Shown here: in pieces, positions 8,825 to 14,185 of the stretch | Numbering within the stretch: position 1 is the first letter of the stretch | Layout of the letters: the number at the start of each line of letters is the position of its first letter | From: Candidatus Nomurabacteria bacterium | GTDB lineage: Bacteria; Patescibacteriota; Minisyncoccia; Phycocordibacterales; SBAW01 | Direction of reading: 5' to 3' | Length of the DNA: 32,148 nt | Assembly: GCA_943356495.1 (NCBI GenBank) | Contig: CALRFF010000001.1 | Span: forward strand, 158,864-191,011 | The notes under the pieces: generated by a model | The model's database searches: none | Told to the model about the DNA's origin: nothing | The model's input: only the letters and a program-made list of their open reading frames with translations | Made by a program: the position numbers and the translations under genes

Positions 8825-9412
8825 CTATACCAAAGTGTTGCGGCCCCGCTCTCCTCTCCTACGCACAACTATCAAAAACATCATGCCGATGTTAACTACT
8901 ATCATCACCACCGAGTGCAAGGCGGTGGTAATGTTGTAACTTTGGAGCGAAACGAGCGCCAACGCGTGACGTAGCACATTTGAGCCGTAGAGCACCGGCG
9001 CCTCGGTGCGCGGGCGCAGCCATGTTTTGCGTACTGTGGGTACAAAAGAAATAAGGTCGATACTAACCGCCAGCACAACCGAGAGTGTCGGGTCTTTGGT
9101 CATAAGCCACGGCACCAAGGCGCCAAGTGCGAGCGCCAAAAACACTATATCGCTTTTGGTAATCGCTTTATAACCGTACTTAAGCGAAAGCAAGAAGATG
9201 GCGGCGGTAAACATCCCCGACGCAGCCGTAGGTAATGCTCCTATGCCGGCACCGGCGGCTACTTGGCCAAAAAAAACAATGCCCGTTACTATGGTCCCCA
9301 CCAACCAGGTGTACGGGTGCGGACGCACAACACCCTTGAGGATCTGCCACACATAGGGTGCATTGCCCGCTACCGCAATAAGCGCCGCCGCTACTGCAAA
9401 TAGTTCCTTCAC
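8825..9412 (-). CDS. Multi-pass membrane protein of unknown function
   Basis: 195 aa, about 6-7 hydrophobic segments, GTG start 6 nt after TATACT. Confidence 0.7.
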   Translation of the reverse strand: MKELFAVAAALIAVAGNAPYVWQILKGVVRPHPYTWLVGTIVTGIVFFGQVAAGAGIGALPTAASGMFTAAIFLLSLKYGYKAITKSDIVFLALALGALVPWLMTKDPTLSVVLAVSIDLISFVPTVRKTWLRPRTEAPVLYGSNVLRHALALVSLQSYNITTALHSVVMIVVNIGMMFLIVVRRRGERGRNTLV

Positions 9413-9418
9413 CTTTTC

Positions 9419-9443
9419 AGTATACTAGGTTGCGCAGTATAGT
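9419..9443. promoter_or_regulatory. Back-to-back -10 boxes in a 37-bp divergent spacer
   Basis: Minus TATACT 9424-9419 and plus TATAGT 9438-9443, each exactly 6 nt from its start codon. Confidence 0.55.
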
Positions 9444-9449
9444 AAGGGT

Positions 9450-9830
9450 ATGAATACCAATACAAATATAATCATCGCGCTACTTATACTTATTATCGGT
9501 TTTGGGGCAGGCTACACTATCCGCGGCAACGACGCCCCAAAAACAGGCGGTCATATGATGGCCGACGGTAGCGTCATGCAAAACGGCGGTATGGGCGGCG
9601 CCATGGACAACATGATGGAGGGCTTGCAGGGCAAGACCGGCGACGCGTTTGACCAAGCGTTTCTTAGCGAAATGATTATGCACCACGAGGGTGCGGTGCA
9701 AATGGCCGAGGCCGCATTGCAATATGCCAAGCATCAGGAAATAAAAGATATGGCAAAAGCTATCATCTCCGCTCAGACAATCGAGATAGAGCAGATGAAA
9801 GTGTGGGGCAAGAGTTGGTACACGCAATAA
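9450..9830 (+). CDS. DUF305-family (ferritin-like) protein with N-terminal TM/signal
   Basis: FDQAFLSEMIMHHEGAVQMA, EIKDMAKAIISAQTIEIEQMK; Met/His-rich linker. Confidence 0.85.
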   Translation: MNTNTNIIIALLILIIGFGAGYTIRGNDAPKTGGHMMADGSVMQNGGMGGAMDNMMEGLQGKTGDAFDQAFLSEMIMHHEGAVQMAEAALQYAKHQEIKDMAKAIISAQTIEIEQMKVWGKSWYTQ

Positions 9831-9835
9831 ACTAG

Positions 9836-10027
9836 TGACCCTACCGGGAAGTGTCTTGCCACAGGCAAGCACGGATCGGTCACAAATAATTTTCTGCTGA
9901 AAATTTTCGCGACCCCGCCTCGGCACCGTCGTGTCTGCGGCTTTCGATTCCCGGCCGCAAAGTCTCCCAGACTTTGCTTAGGGCCAGCTTACGAAAAAGC
10001 CGCCTTTCGGCGGTACTTTTTCTGCGC
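9836..10027. mobile_element. Putative ~192-bp non-autonomous element or integration remnant at the tRNA-Glu 3' end
   Basis: 15-bp direct repeat tgaccctaccgggaa (9836-9850 = 10028-10042), internal hairpins and an inverted copy of the tRNA 3' half. Confidence 0.55.
9993..10022. terminator. Bidirectional terminator-like hairpin between DUF305 and tRNA-Glu
   Basis: gaaaaag-ccgcc-tttc-ggcgg-ta-ctttttc. Confidence 0.7.
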
Positions 10028-10099
10028 TGACCCTACCGGGAATCGAACCCGGATTAACGGCTTGAAAAGCCGGCGTCCTAACCGTTAGACGATAGGGCC
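10028..10099 (-). tRNA. tRNA-Glu(TTC)
   Basis: GGCCCTATCGTCTAACGGTTAGGACGCCGGCTTTTCAAGCCGTTAATCCGGGTTCGATTCCCGGTAGGGTCA folds as a cloverleaf; CCA not encoded. Confidence 0.95.
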
Positions 10100-10123
10100 C
10101 TCTCCTGTAGTTAGTCTACAGGT

Positions 10124-10213
10124 TGGCGGAGGAGGTGAGATTCGAACTCACGGTGAGGTTTCCCCCACGCCGCATTTCGAGTGCGGTGCCTTCGACCACT
10201 CAGCCACTCCTCC
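10124..10213 (-). tRNA. tRNA-Ser(CGA)
   Basis: GGAGGAG acceptor, CCGCA-CTCGAAA-TGCGG anticodon arm, long variable arm, GTTCGAATC, encoded CCA. Confidence 0.95.
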
Positions 10214-10251
10214 GTGGCCATAAAATACCATCATTTGGGGTGTTTTACCAC

Positions 10252-10764
10252 TTATCGCGCCGCAACTTTTGCCGTATACGGCGTTGCAAAAAATTGCACA
10301 ACAAACGTCGCGGGTTTTCCTTGATAGGTTCCCCGAGCAATACCTATACCCATGCGGGTGTACGCGCCTTTTACTATGTTGGCGCGGTGCGTGGGCGAGT
10401 CCATCCACGCCTGTTCTAAACTTTGTGCGTCGGTAAAGTTTAAGCCCAAGTTCTCCCCCGCCCGACGGTAGGCATACCCCGCTTTTTTAAACCACACCCA
10501 CGGCGCATTGCCCGATGGGTCTACGTGCGCAAAATATCCTTTAGTCGCCATGTCATCGGCTTTGGCTTGGGCCGCTTTGTTTAATACGGTATCTTCGATA
10601 AGCGGTTGGGCGCCAAGTGCGACACGGTCGGCATTTGCAAACGCTATGACATTGCTTGCGGTTAGTGCGAGCGAAGTTTCGGCTGAGACCGGCAGAGCGA
10701 ATCCGAATACTAATAAGCTGGCGACAGTCGTGGAGGCGAGCGACCAAGTTAACCGTATGTTCAT
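10252..10764 (-). CDS. Secreted CAP (SCP) domain protein
   Basis: Signal peptide, then NADR...L...LNKAAQAKADDMATKGYFAH, AGENL, WMDSPTHRANI. Confidence 0.9.
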   Translation of the reverse strand: MNIRLTWSLASTTVASLLVFGFALPVSAETSLALTASNVIAFANADRVALGAQPLIEDTVLNKAAQAKADDMATKGYFAHVDPSGNAPWVWFKKAGYAYRRAGENLGLNFTDAQSLEQAWMDSPTHRANIVKGAYTRMGIGIARGTYQGKPATFVVQFFATPYTAKVAAR

Positions 10765-13035: not shown

Positions 13036-13108
13036 GCACCCTTAGCTCAGTTGGTAGAGCGACCCCTTGACGTGGGGTAGGCCGGGAGTTCGAATCTCTC
13101 AGGGTGCA
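13036..13108 (+). tRNA. tRNA-Val(GAC)
   Basis: GCACCCT/AGGGTGC acceptor, TAGCTCAGTTGGTAGAGC D arm, ACCCC-TTGACGT-GGGGT, GTTCGAATC. Confidence 0.95.
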
Positions 13109-13111
13109 CCG

Positions 13112-14185
13112 ATGAAAGTGCTTGCCATAGAAACGTCCTGCGACGAGACCGGTATCGCCGTTGTAGAGGCCCGCAAAGAAGGCTCGGTTTTATTGTTTGA
13201 AACAAAAAAAGCCGCACTCTTGTCCCAAGCGCTGCTCCACTCTCCTTACGGCGGGGTGTACCCCAACCTCGCCAAGCGCGAACATCTTAAAAACTTGCCC
13301 GCACTGTGGGAGCAATTTTCGGGCGAAACGTATGACGCAGTGGCCGTAACGGTAGGGCCGGGGCTCGAGCCCGCGCTGTGGACCGGTATCGAGTTTGCCA
13401 AAAAAATTGCCGCAGAAAAAAATCTGCCGCTTATACCCGTTAACCATATGGAGGGGCACCTAATCTCCTCCCTCGCACAAAAACATCATTCTAGTGTTTT
13501 GCAAAACACTGCAATAGAGAACGTGCAGATACCCGTGTTGGCGCTTCTTATTTCCGGCGGACACACCGAGTTTGTGCTTATGCAAAAGTGGTTCGAGTAC
13601 GAAATCATCGGCGAGACGCTCGATGACGCCGTGGGCGAAGCGTTTGATAAAGTGGCGCGCATGCTTGGCCTGCCCTACCCCGGAGGGCCAGCCATCTCTG
13701 CATTGGCAGACACGGCAAGATCCAAATCACAAAAAACAAATATCAAACTCCCGCGGCCGATGCTTAACTCGGGTACCTGCGATGTATCCTTTTCGGGGCT
13801 TAAAACTGCCGCACTCTACGCCCTGCGCGACCGCGGCGGAATCCAAAAACTTGCGGCAGATGAAATCGCCGCCTTTGCCGCCGAGTTTGAAGACGCGGTA
13901 GCAGAGATATTTGCCGTAAAGACGCGCCAAGCACTTATACAAACCAACGCAAAAACATTTGTCATAGGCGGGGGCGTGGCAGCCAACCGCTATATACGCG
14001 AAAAGTTGCAGGCGCTTATACTCGACGAGTTCCCCGACGTCGAGCTGCGCCTCCCCGACCCGTCTATAACCGGCGACAACGCCGTGATGATAGCTCAAGC
14101 GGCTCTTGCCCGCGCCCTCAACGGTAAAAACGATGCCGCAACCAACGACCTTGCAGCGGTTGGTAATCTATCTATAGCAAGCTAA
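13112..14185 (+). CDS. tsaD: tRNA N6-threonylcarbamoyladenosine transferase TsaD
   Basis: VLAIETSCDETG, VTVGPGLEPAL, VNHMEGH, LLISGGHT, TLDDAVGEAFDK, YPGGP, FSGLKT, GGVAAN, TGDNAVMIA. Confidence 0.97.
   Translation: MKVLAIETSCDETGIAVVEARKEGSVLLFETKKAALLSQALLHSPYGGVYPNLAKREHLKNLPALWEQFSGETYDAVAVTVGPGLEPALWTGIEFAKKIAAEKNLPLIPVNHMEGHLISSLAQKHHSSVLQNTAIENVQIPVLALLISGGHTEFVLMQKWFEYEIIGETLDDAVGEAFDKVARMLGLPYPGGPAISALADTARSKSQKTNIKLPRPMLNSGTCDVSFSGLKTAALYALRDRGGIQKLAADEIAAFAAEFEDAVAEIFAVKTRQALIQTNAKTFVIGGGVAANRYIREKLQALILDEFPDVELRLPDPSITGDNAVMIAQAALARALNGKNDAATNDLAAVGNLSIAS
13493..13510. repeat. Perfect 18-bp palindrome inside tsaD
   Basis: agtgttttgcaaaacact, encoding SVLQNT in a variable loop. 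Confidence 0.8.
13722..13749. repeat. Degenerate heptamer tandem repeat inside tsaD
   Basis: ccaaatc-acaaaaa-acaaata-tcaaact, with CAAA recurring at period 7; encodes SKSQKTNIKL. Confidence 0.5.

What the first reader, a model, noticed from the sequence alone, without database searches (positions are those of the whole stretch)
9836..10047. 192-bp structured element at the tRNA-Glu 3' end: att-like direct repeat plus an antisense copy of the tRNA 3' half
Seen: the last 15 nt of tRNA-Glu (tgaccctaccgggaa, 10028-10042) recur exactly at 9836-9850. Between them lie hairpin gtgtcttgcc-aca-ggcaagcac (9851-9872), hairpin aattttc-tgct-gaaaatt inside ggtc..gacc arms, and an inverted tRNA 3' half. That half is ttcgattcccgg (9943-9954) plus tagggccagc (9979-9988), split by a perfect 9-bp hairpin gcaaagtct-ccc-agactttgc (9957-9977). 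A terminator hairpin follows (9993-10022). A read-through pre-tRNA could pair about 22 nt of its T arm, acceptor strand and flank with its own trailer. Known: integrative elements duplicate tRNA 3' ends as attL/attR. Inference: a minimal integrase-less remnant or MITE, or a tRNA-trailer RNA that refolds or regulates the precursor. No recombinase gene is present in the window.
Basis: partly seen in the sequence, partly recalled or inferred. Interest (0 to 1): 0.75.

Follow-up and report, generated by a model that had tools for sequence, protein, structure and literature searches.

The report
tRNA-linked structured RNA cassette (RtT-like)
The 192 bases after tRNA-Glu are one copy of a large, unannotated family of small non-coding cassettes that sit at the ends of tRNA, tmRNA and a few protein genes in CPR bacteria; each clamps a conserved RNA core between an antisense and a sense copy of its host gene's end, as the poorly understood RtT repeats of E. 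coli do.

Summary

It is not a one-off integrase scar. In the tRNA sense (window minus strand) the element reads: tRNA-Glu 3' end, bidirectional terminator hairpin, antisense copy of tRNA positions 54-73 split by hairpin P2, conserved two-hairpin core, hairpin P5, then a sense copy of the last 15 nt.

- **Family size:** the core motif found 120 or more metagenome contigs and about 14 CPR species.
- **Host genes:** it lies downstream of tRNAs with about 35 different anticodons, of tmRNA, and of topA and rplL.
- **Host matching:** the flanking antisense and sense segments match the local host gene (p about 1e-21 and 1e-14).
- **Structure:** the core stems covary strongly and contain invariant G.U pairs that form only on the tRNA-sense strand.
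- **Linked genes:** no protein family is linked to the element.
- **Conservation:** orthologous copies are more conserved than ftsZ (88% against 80% nucleotide identity).

The closest known thing is E. coli RtT (Rfam RF00391), which has the same architecture but no detectable sequence homology.

Separately, a 13-kb large-serine-recombinase island is present or absent exactly at the tRNA/cassette junction.

The mechanism remains inferred: a gene-end replacement cassette whose read-through RNA forms a tRNA-minihelix-like clamp.

The parts
10028..10099 (-). tRNA-Glu(UUC), host gene; no encoded CCA
   Evidence: ARAGORN; Rfam tRNA 63.7 bits
10124..10213 (-). tRNA-Ser(CGA), upstream and co-oriented with tRNA-Glu; not part of the cassette
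10028..10042 (-). Copy A (X): the last 15 nt of tRNA-Glu, TTCCCGGTAGGGTCA in the tRNA sense
10028..10031 (.). GTCA (TGAC on +): the shared core of attB for a 13-kb large-serine-recombinase island. The site is empty in the window and occupied in sister contigs.
   Evidence: junction comparison of window, L001/L003/L004 and L005; recombinase domains
9987..10027 (-). H0: extended hairpin with a bidirectional intrinsic-terminator core (stem 9999-10014, A-tract and U-tract arms)
   Evidence: terminator scan on both strands; folds; conserved with compensatory changes in L043, L038 and L031
9979..9986 (-). Anti-acceptor segment UGGCCCUA, complementary to tRNA 66-73
9957..9977 (-). P2 hairpin (9 bp), inserted between the two antisense segments. 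The stem sequence differs between species while pairing is kept.
9943..9954 (-). Anti-T segment CCGGGAAUCGAA, complementary to tRNA 54-65, followed by the conserved AG of the 'GAAAG' junction
9876..9945 (-). Conserved family core: GAAAG, P3 (9917-9940, GCC/GGC helix plus GGA/GA internal loop plus hairpin), GG, P4 (9878-9916, lower stem GGUCGCGA/UUUGUGACC with two invariant G.U pairs, variable upper stem)
   Evidence: CM R1 hit at 82 bits, E about 1e-17; nhmmer; covariation
9851..9872 (-). P5 hairpin between the core and copy C, with compensatory changes in L043
9836..9850 (-). Copy C (X'): sense duplicate of the last 15 nt of tRNA-Glu. It pairs with the antisense segments to close the core, and 15/15 positions are kept in L043 and L038.
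9450..9830 (+). Convergent DUF305 gene, whose stop lies 5 nt before copy C. It is flank, not part of the cassette.

Best explanation
The 192 bp (9836-10027) are one copy of a widespread family of non-coding 'gene-end cassettes' of CPR/Patescibacteria. They have the same architecture as the E. coli RtT repeats.

SHOWN
- Layout: the unit lies directly after tRNA-Glu on the same strand. It consists of a terminator hairpin, an antisense copy of the tRNA's T-loop/T-stem/acceptor 3' strand interrupted by hairpin P2, a conserved two-hairpin core, and a sense copy of the tRNA's last 15 nt.
- Family behaviour: across the family the core is nearly invariant, while the antisense and sense segments always match whichever gene is upstream (tRNAs of all isotypes, tmRNA, topA, rplL).
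- Structure: the stems covary, and the structure exists only on the sense strand.
- Context: no enzyme gene travels with the element.
- Selection: orthologous copies are under purifying selection.

INFERRED
1. The unit arose as an inserted cassette. It brings a replacement gene end plus a terminator (copy A + H0) and displaces the resident end (copy C). The likely route is recombination within the duplicated segment, which typically begins in the T loop.
2. It is transcribed by read-through of its leaky terminator as a tRNA trailer.
3. In that RNA the antisense segment pairs with the displaced copy to form a 7+7-bp clamp. The clamp mimics the acceptor/T-stem minihelix of tRNA-Glu, with P2 emerging where the tRNA body would be and the core replacing the T loop.
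4. The clamp keeps the spare 3' fragment from competing with the real 3' end during tRNA folding.
5. It also gives the trailer tRNA-like ends, so that tRNA-end enzymes (RNase P, 3' trimming, CCA addition) could release a stable RNA of about 150 nt, as reported for rtT RNA of E. coli.

What the conserved core binds or does is unknown.
For: - Anatomy and significance.
- Homologous trailers after the identical tRNA-Glu in about 14 CPR species.
- Core motif in 120 or more metagenome contigs, 80 of them with a same-strand tRNA 36-350 nt upstream, covering about 35 anticodons. It also occurs at tmRNA, at topA and rplL 3' ends, and mirror-wise at tRNA 5' ends.
- Host matching (n=78): a sense copy of 10 nt or more of the own tRNA in 36 loci against 0.1% for other tRNAs. 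An antisense copy of 8 nt or more in 37 loci against 8.5%. p = 4e-21 and 1e-14. The modal copy length is 18 nt, starting right after ..GUGACC.
- Covariation on 113 copies: 96.5% of cells paired against 75.5% shuffled, 472 against 140 double-sided changes, score 0.476 against 0.122, slid controls at most 0.07. Two invariant G.U pairs would be A.C on the other strand.
- No protein family is enriched within 3.5 kb of 120 copies.
- Purifying selection: the W/L043 module is 87.7% identical, against ftsZ at 80% and other genes at 69-72%, in conserved synteny with compensatory changes.
- Cassette behaviour: tandem units each carry their own matched sense/antisense pair. The duplicated topA 3' end keeps its frame (16/22 aa identical, with synonymous differences). 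Nine cores at 95% identity or more sit at 7 different tRNAs.
- Copy origin: copy C lacks CCA when the gene lacks it and has CCA when the gene encodes it, so it was copied from DNA rather than from mature tRNA.
- The clamp and hairpins are the predicted fold of the module alone.
- RtT has the same clamp (GGGGAAGGAU ... AUCCUUCCCCCACCACCA) and the same position.
Against: - No transcript data exist. A strong terminator lies between the tRNA and the module, so co-transcription is an assumption.
- In the nearest-neighbour model the read-through RNA prefers the fold in which the tRNA's own 3' half pairs with the antisense segment (-136 against -120.5 kcal/mol). That suits a switch or trap as well as a neutralising clamp.
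- No clean pair of filled and empty sites in near-identical genomes was found for the module itself.
- How a cassette acquires a new matching sense/antisense pair when it colonises a new gene is unexplained.
- About a quarter of copies (20 of 78) have only a 3-6-nt match or none.
- No sequence homology to RtT is detectable in either direction, so the parallel may be convergent.
Confidence: 0.55

Rival explanations
1. Cis-regulatory switch on tRNA maturation. The conserved core is a sensor (aptamer or protein-binding platform). When it is folded or bound, the antisense segment is held by copy C and the tRNA folds normally. Otherwise the antisense segment captures the tRNA's 3' half (T loop to acceptor) and blocks processing.
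For: - Three mutually exclusive pairing partners (A, antisense, C) are conserved.
- The alternative fold is about 15 kcal/mol more stable than cloverleaf plus clamp.
- The core has invariant junction nucleotides and covarying stems, as aptamers do.
- Orthologous copies are under purifying selection.
- Rfam files RtT as cis-regulatory.
Against: - The same unit sits at 3' ends of protein genes and at tRNA 5' ends, and it forms tandem arrays.
- Only about 10% of tRNA genes carry one, with no isotype preference.
- A terminator precedes the antisense segment.
- Some copies lack the antisense part altogether.
Confidence: 0.15
2. Programmable mobile element without its own enzyme. The antisense and sense segments act as guides that pair with the two strands of the target gene end (as RNA or as folded single-stranded DNA, CTX-phage-like). 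A host or trans-acting enzyme then inserts the unit.
For: - Conserved scaffold parts (P2, GAAAG, core) are interleaved with target-matching parts, as in guide RNAs.
- About 35 tRNA targets plus tmRNA and protein genes have been colonised.
- Near-identical cores sit at different tRNAs.
- Tandem accretion occurs.
- The antisense:C duplex reproduces the target duplex.
Against: - No candidate enzyme is linked to the element.
- It is absent from phage, plasmid and (apart from one host-like contig) viral collections.
- Orthologous copies are old and conserved, so they are not recent insertions.
- No excised or empty forms of the module were seen among strain-level contigs.
Confidence: 0.15
3. Decaying attL/attR remnant of a conventional integrase-encoded island. 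This includes the possibility that it is the leftover end of the 13-kb serine-recombinase island seen in sister contigs.
For: - The 15-nt direct repeat of the tRNA 3' end is the classic signature.
- This tRNA is a real integration hot spot: the island is present or absent at the junction, and a 1-kb insert sits at the same place in L038.
- The 22 nt around copy C match the island's attL with 1 mismatch.
Against: - The module is present, nearly unchanged, in both occupied and empty states.
- It is found at 120 or more loci without any recombinase.
- It shows covarying structure and strand asymmetry.
- It is conserved better than coding genes.
- The island's junctions share only GTCA with the module side.
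Confidence: 0.05
4. Chance similarity or assembly artefact.
For: None beyond the small size of the repeats.
Against: Shuffle statistics argue against chance. Identical sequence occurs in independent assemblies from ENA, NCBI and Logan, and homologues occur in other species.
Confidence: 0.01

Closest known systems
RtT RNA / the 178-bp repeats of the E. coli tyrT-tyrV locus (Rfam RF00391; gene rttR)
   Same: - It lies directly downstream of a tRNA gene on the same strand.
- Each unit ends with a copy of the tRNA's 3' terminal segment (19 nt of tRNA-Tyr).
- The Rfam consensus closing stem pairs an antisense copy of the T stem (GGGGAAGGAU, followed by GAGAA) with that copy.
- It forms tandem arrays whose copy number varies between strains (1-10 places per genome).
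- It has no linked enzyme.
- Its function is unresolved (rtT RNA as a processing product of the tyrT transcript, cited in 10.1101/2024.07.17.603846 and PMC3318445).
   Different: - No detectable sequence or CM homology exists in either direction.
- The inner fold differs: here there are two side-by-side hairpins, P3 and P4.
- The CPR family adds an anti-acceptor segment, hairpin P2 and usually a terminator.
- The CPR family occupies tRNAs of all isotypes, tmRNA and protein genes, whereas in the E. coli search every listed hit was annotated simply as RtT sRNA; I saw it next to a tRNA only at the tyrT-tyrV locus and did not check the neighbours of the other hits.
- Copy C here lacks CCA, because the gene does.
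attL/attR duplications left by islands that integrate into the T-loop-to-3'-end segment of tRNA and tmRNA genes (sublocation classes of Williams 2002, from memory), and integrase-less CIME-type derivatives
   Same: - The direct repeat runs from the T loop to the gene's 3' end.
- The element supplies the functional gene end and a terminator.
- tmRNA and protein 3' ends are also targets.
- Accretion in tandem occurs.
   Different: - The element is 100-300 nt with no integrase anywhere near 120 copies.
- One near-invariant core serves dozens of different targets.
- It carries an obligatory antisense copy.
- It has a covarying, strand-specific structure.
- It is under purifying selection.
Large serine recombinase (phiC31/Bxb1-type) integration sites
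   Same: This applies only to the neighbouring island. The junctions share a 4-nt core (GTCA) with no long repeat, and the 517-aa protein has Resolvase, Recombinase and Zn-ribbon domains.
   Different: The 192-bp element is not made by this enzyme's sites. It only provides the B' half of the attB.
Guide-bearing non-coding scaffolds (retroviral PBS complementary to 18 nt of a tRNA 3' end; H/ACA guide pockets; IS110 bridge RNA; IS200/IS605 guide-target pairing), from memory
   Same: A conserved scaffold is interleaved with segments complementary to a target. The match is about 18 nt to a tRNA 3' end, and a hairpin sits between two guide halves.
   Different: No partner enzyme was found. Here the 'target' is also present in cis (copy C). 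The copy lacks CCA, so it does not derive from mature tRNA.
Transposed tRNA introns of Thermoproteales archaea (Fujishima et al. 2010, from memory)
   Same: Near-identical non-coding sequences are found in many different tRNA genes.
   Different: Those lie inside the mature tRNA and are removed by the splicing endonuclease. Here the tRNA is intact and the unit lies beyond a duplicated end.

Membership tests
RtT RNA (Rfam RF00391) | Immediately downstream of a tRNA gene, on the same strand | tested here: met
RtT RNA (Rfam RF00391) | Unit ends with a copy of the tRNA's 3' terminal segment, which pairs with an upstream antisense copy of the T stem (closing stem of the consensus) | tested here: met
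   Window 9836-9850 pairs with 9943-9954 and 9979-9986. The RtT consensus is shown.
RtT RNA (Rfam RF00391) | Scores against the RF00391 covariance model | tested here: not met
   No RtT hit at E<=10 in 9400-10500. The reciprocal CPR model R1 finds nothing in the E. coli locus at E<=1.
RtT RNA (Rfam RF00391) | Released as a discrete RNA from the tRNA precursor | not testable with these tools
   This needs RNA-seq, Northern blots or RACE.
Integrase-borne genomic island remnant / CIME | Direct repeats of the target gene end flank the insert | tested here: met
Integrase-borne genomic island remnant / CIME | Related full-length elements carry a recombinase next to the same end sequences | tested here: not met
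   No recombinase family appears among ORFs within 3.5 kb of 120 copies. The serine-recombinase island does not contain the module's core, apart from one weak hit at E=0.065.
MITE | Element-specific terminal inverted repeats and a fixed-length target-site duplication | tested here: not met
   The inverted segments are copies of the host gene and change with it. The duplication runs from the T loop to the gene end, from 6 to about 70 nt.
Structured non-coding RNA (generic) | Compensatory base changes and strand-specific pairs | tested here: met
   16 of 22 pairs show double-sided changes, the score is 0.476 against 0.122, and G.U is invariant at two pairs. The alignment was fitted to the model, which inflates the counts somewhat. 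An independent MAFFT/RNAalifold run gave 10 of 21 pairs with compensatory changes.
Intrinsic terminator | GC-rich hairpin followed by a U tract | tested here: met
   It scores on both strands at 9999-10014.
Large-serine-recombinase attB | Precise presence/absence of an island with a short shared core, and an LSR gene at the island end | tested here: met
   attB is ..GGTAGG GTCA GCGCAG.., attL is ..GGTAGG GTCA CAAGTTT.. and attR is ..TATAGA GTCA GCGCAG... Protein domains are shown.
tRNA-like RNase P / CCA-enzyme substrate | Coaxial acceptor plus T-stem mimic with a discriminator base at the 3' end | tested here: inconclusive
   The predicted 7+7-bp clamp has the tRNA-Glu acceptor sequence and A73. 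Enzymatic recognition was not tested.

The most novel reading that the evidence does not exclude
The family is a new class of programmable, enzyme-less gene-end element. A small structured RNA (or folded single strand) uses an antisense guide split by a hairpin, plus a sense copy, to recognise the ends of tRNA, tmRNA and other conserved genes. It inserts or copies itself there using only host machinery, or the conserved core is itself catalytic.
Probability: 0.15. Interest if true: 0.95.

Novelty: new variant of a known kind. Interest (0 to 1): 0.8.

Why it matters
The E. coli tyrT repeats and their rtT RNA have been an unexplained oddity since, as I recall, the late 1970s. This window shows that the same design is a general and abundant feature of a whole bacterial radiation. 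A conserved structured core is clamped by an antisense and a sense copy of the neighbouring gene's end. The clamp is re-tailored to dozens of different tRNAs, to tmRNA and to some protein genes, and it is kept by selection.

That has three consequences:
- An isolated curiosity becomes a family with hundreds of natural variants, on which structure, processing and function can be tested.
- It adds a likely stable RNA to the very small non-coding repertoire known for CPR bacteria.
- It raises a concrete open question: how does a 100-200-nt unit without any enzyme gene acquire a matching pair of guide-like segments at each new gene?

It also matters for annotation. These units would otherwise be read as integrase scars or tRNA pseudogene fragments.

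Tried and rejected
- Rfam at E<=10 over 9400-10500 found only the two tRNAs and chance hits.
- The viral-contig scan with the core pattern gave 1 true hit, on a contig with host-like genes (the same 34,711-bp contig as L106), and 5 chance hits.
- Phage and plasmid collections gave no match.
- I looked for a linked enzyme by clustering all ORFs within 3.5 kb of 120 copies. Only housekeeping families recurred.
- I looked for clean filled/empty pairs of the module among syntenic species. L028, L012/L013 and L016/L055 differ by more than the module, so the result is not decisive.
- Retro-copy of mature tRNA (PBS-like origin): rejected, because copy C lacks CCA where the gene lacks it.
- DGR-like template/variable repeat for the duplicated topA end: rejected, because the differences are not adenine-specific.
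- Homology to RtT by covariance model in both directions: none found.
- A small peptide in the module, like E. coli tpr: I saw no AUG in the stretch of the tRNA-sense sequence I read (about 9860-9950; by eye, not a systematic ORF check).
- Literature searches by topic and by sequence strings found no description of this family.
- The apparent similarity of the island's P' arm (CAAGTTT) to the flank after copy C (CTAGTTT) was noted but could not be interpreted.
Full report
**1. What is in the window**

tRNA-Glu(UUC) lies on the minus strand at 10028-10099 and is preceded by tRNA-Ser(CGA). So the finding (9836-10047) is the 3' end of tRNA-Glu plus the 192 nt downstream of it. The convergent DUF305 gene ends at 9830.

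- The exact 15-nt direct repeat is at 9836-9850 and 10028-10042.
- The 12-nt inverted repeat is at 9943-9954 / 10036-10047.
- The perfect 9-bp hairpin is at 9957-9977.
- The two other hairpins are present, as is a hairpin that scores as an intrinsic terminator on both strands.

The repeat is not chance: 0.05 matches are expected even with two mismatches, and 0 of 100 shuffles reached two. It is not an assembly artefact either. The same 192 bp are found in independent ENA, NCBI and Logan assemblies.

**2. A real recombinase island uses the neighbouring junction, but it is a different element**

Contigs of the same population exist in two states.
- In the window, L002, L006 and L008, tRNA-Glu abuts the 192-bp element.
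- In L001/L005 (one 111-kb contig), L003 and L004, foreign DNA starts between them. On the 111-kb contig it measures about 13 kb; L003 and L004 show only the module-side junction.
- On that contig the first gene of the insert encodes a 517-aa protein with Resolvase, Recombinase and Zn-ribbon domains.

Read in the tRNA sense, the junctions are:
- attB: ..CCCGGTAGG GTCA GCGCAG..
- attL: ..CCCGGTAGG GTCA CAAGTTTGG..
- attR: ..GGTTGTATAGA GTCA GCGCAG..

Only GTCA is shared, as expected for a large serine recombinase. The 192-bp element is essentially unchanged in both states (identical in L003 and L004, one mismatch in L001). It is therefore neither produced nor removed by this island. In L038 a 1-kb insert sits at the same junction, next to a degenerate third copy of the tRNA end. 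This tRNA end is a hot spot.

**3. The element has relatives at the same tRNA in other species**

A scan of one genome per species for this tRNA-Glu gave 46 CPR genomes (Paceibacterota, Kaiser-, Adler-, Nomura- and Vogelbacteria, and others). About 14 of them have a homologous trailer.

In the tRNA sense the common plan is:
1. The tRNA end.
2. A terminator-like hairpin H0.
3. (U)GACCCUA, antisense to the acceptor 3' strand.
4. Hairpin P2. Its stem differs between species while staying paired: GCAAAGUCU, GCAAGCAAC, GCAUGUGAA, GCAAAUGAA, GAAAGACAC.
5. CCGGGAAUCGAA-AG, antisense to the T stem and T loop.
6. One or two hairpins.
7. GGGGUCGCGAG-hairpin-CUUGUGACC.
8. An optional hairpin P5.
9. A sense copy of the tRNA end.

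**4. The core is a widespread motif tied to gene ends of every kind**

- In 80 of them a tRNA lies 36-350 nt upstream on the same strand. These tRNAs cover about 35 different anticodons.
- Most of the remaining copies sit near a contig end.
- Four follow tmRNA.
- A few follow topA or rplL.
- Six lie upstream of a tRNA, in a mirror arrangement: sense copy of the tRNA 5' end, core, antisense copy, tRNA.

Directly after ..GUGACC comes a copy of the last 16-20 nt of the particular upstream tRNA. Before the core lies its antisense copy.

I quantified this on 78 loci:
- A sense match of 10 nt or more to the own tRNA occurs in 36 loci, against 0.1% for other tRNAs (p = 4e-21).
- An antisense match of 8 nt or more occurs in 37 loci, against 8.5% (p = 1e-14).
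- The modal copy length is 18 nt, so the copy starts in the T loop.

The copy carries CCA only where the gene encodes CCA, so it derives from DNA and not from mature tRNA.

At topA the duplicated segment is about 70 nt of coding sequence. The two copies keep the reading frame, are identical at 16 of 22 residues, and differ at synonymous positions. So one gene end came in with the cassette from another lineage. Tandem arrays exist in which each unit has its own matched sense/antisense pair.

**5. It is a structured, strand-specific nucleic acid**

MAFFT plus RNAalifold on 30 compact cores predicts a GCC/GGC helix, P3 and P4, with compensatory changes at 10 of 21 pairs.

A covariance model built from them finds exactly one copy in the window (9876-9945, minus strand, 82 bits) and 113 copies in 100 sources. 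On that alignment:
- 96.5% of cells pair, against 75.5% in shuffles.
- 472 cells show changes on both sides, against 140.
- The covariation score is 0.476, against 0.122 shuffled and at most 0.07 when partners are slid.

The alignment is fitted to the model, so these numbers lean towards the structure. The independent alifold result points the same way.

Two G.U pairs in the lower P4 stem are practically invariant (112/113 and 101/113). On the opposite strand they would be A.C. The structure therefore belongs to the strand that is sense with the host gene. That points to RNA, or less likely to one DNA strand.

**6. It travels alone and is kept by selection**

No protein family recurs within 3.5 kb of 120 copies except housekeeping genes. 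The element is absent from the phage and plasmid collections. The single hit in viral contigs is on a contig with host-like genes.

Roughly one tRNA gene in ten carries a copy in the species sampled, and some 8-14-kb loci hold two or three. The window holds only this one, among seven tRNAs.

The copies in W, L043 and L038 are orthologous, with synteny TsaD .. tRNA-Ser - tRNA-Glu - module .. Pyr_redox - FtsZ:
- The W/L043 modules are 87.7% identical over 195 nt.
- ftsZ is 80% identical, and other genes 69-72%.
- Copy C is kept at 15/15, and H0, P2, P4 and P5 show compensatory changes.

So the unit is old and under purifying selection in this lineage. At the same time, nine cores at 95% identity or more sit at seven different tRNAs, and related species carry different module types at the same tRNA-Glu. 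Over longer times, units are gained, lost and moved.

**7. Closest known**

The E. coli tyrT-tyrV locus has four units that Rfam calls RtT (RF00391). Each lies after a tRNA-Tyr gene or after another unit, and each ends with the last 19 nt of tRNA-Tyr. In the Rfam consensus each is closed by pairing that copy with GGGGAAGGAU, the antisense of the T stem, followed by GAGAA. Copy number varies from 1 to 10 places per genome among 4738 E. coli genomes.

This is the same architecture as here. However, neither the Rfam model nor my model detects the other family, and the inner folds differ. I therefore treat the window's element as RtT-like in design and not as a member of RF00391.

The papers I could reach only say that rtT RNA is a product of one tyrT repeat unit and may be involved in transcript processing or the stringent response (10.1101/2024.07.17.603846; PMC3318445). 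The older primary papers are cited from memory. I found no description of the CPR family.

**8. How it most likely works**

*Shown:* the anatomy, the host matching, the covariation and strand asymmetry, the lack of a linked enzyme, and the conservation.

*Inferred:*
- The unit is a gene-end cassette. It supplies copy A plus a terminator and leaves the old end as copy C.
- Its RNA arises by read-through of H0.
- In that RNA the antisense segments pair with copy C into a 7+7-bp clamp that reproduces the acceptor and T stems of tRNA-Glu. P2 emerges where the tRNA body would be, and the core sits in place of the T loop. This is the predicted fold of the module alone.

Such a clamp would neutralise the spare 3' fragment. 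It would also offer tRNA-like ends to RNase P, 3' trimming and CCA addition, which is how a discrete rtT-like RNA could be released.

The thermodynamic model actually prefers a fold in which the tRNA's own 3' half pairs with the antisense segment, while the tRNA 5' half pairs with copy C (-136 against -120.5 kcal/mol). A switch or trap function therefore remains a serious rival.

The most novel reading is a programmable element that uses the antisense and sense segments as guides together with host enzymes. It is not excluded. It would best explain how so many different gene ends were colonised, but it lacks any candidate enzyme and any sign of current mobility.

**9. Verdict**

The element is a new, large and unannotated variant of the RtT kind of tRNA-linked structured repeat. 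Its mechanism is open, and it is well worth experimental follow-up.

Noticed in passing
window 10028-10031 (attB core); L005 10739-20513 and L001 3582-6381: A 13-kb island with a 517-aa large serine recombinase is present or absent among contigs of the same population, exactly between tRNA-Glu and the 192-bp element. Its cargo includes GrpB, a response-regulator receiver, a TrmB-like regulator and many unknown ORFs.
   Followed up: partly
L038 3854-5079 (+): In a Kaiserbacteria MAG, a 1-kb insert with two small ORFs sits at the same tRNA/module junction. It is bounded by GGGTCA on both sides and by a degenerate third copy of the tRNA end (CCCACTTGGGTCA). L016 carries a similar CCCACTTG variant.
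   Followed up: no
window 9829-9850 vs L005 10723-10744: The 22 nt spanning copy C and its flank (TTCCCGGTAGGGTCACTAGTTT) match the island's attL (..GGGTCACAAGTTT) with one mismatch. The island's P' arm therefore resembles the flank beyond the module, and many relatives have GGGTCA-CAA.. after tRNA-Glu. The meaning is unclear.
   Followed up: partly
L007 10666-11120: In GCA_943356795.1, tRNA-Glu (with one A>G change in the acceptor 3' strand) is followed at the contig end directly by the start of a TsaD-like gene. That start is only about 80% identical to the window's tsaD. This is either a chimeric join at the conserved tRNA or the arrangement seen in other species (L037, L057).
   Followed up: partly
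L056, L048, L019, L098 (downstream of tRNA-Glu / tRNA-Tyr): The same antisense/P2/sense frame can hold a different inner core ('type 2': GACUUUUCG..CGAAAAGU, GGCGAUGUAGUCGCC, GCGUACUCGC hairpin). The frame and the core thus seem to be separable modules.
   Followed up: no
many loci, e.g. L066, L078, L086, L097, L133, L182: Hairpin P2 very often has the nearly invariant loop region CAAACUGCUUUG, on stems of varying sequence. In some loci this hairpin replaces the terminator. The window's P2 (loop GGG) is an exception.
   Followed up: no
L118, L125, L144: Mirror-image copies lie upstream of tRNAs. In L118 the P2-plus-core unit interrupts the D loop of a partial duplicate (positions 1-39) of the tRNA that follows.
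   Followed up: partly
L005 18631-18697 (+): A weak hit of the core model (18 bits, E = 0.065) lies inside the serine-recombinase island. It is probably chance.
   Followed up: no
window 13036-13115: The tsaD start codon follows the 3' end of tRNA-Val(GAC) after only about 2 nt, so the gene would have to be expressed from a tRNA-containing transcript.
   Followed up: no
L058 = L106 (contig of 34,711 bp listed in IMG/VR): Three modules lie in tandem, matched to a tRNA-Ser-like 3' end (AAATCCCTCCCTCTCCG). They sit next to ordinary host genes (SGNH hydrolase, cytidine deaminase, GalE) on a contig catalogued as viral.
   Followed up: partly
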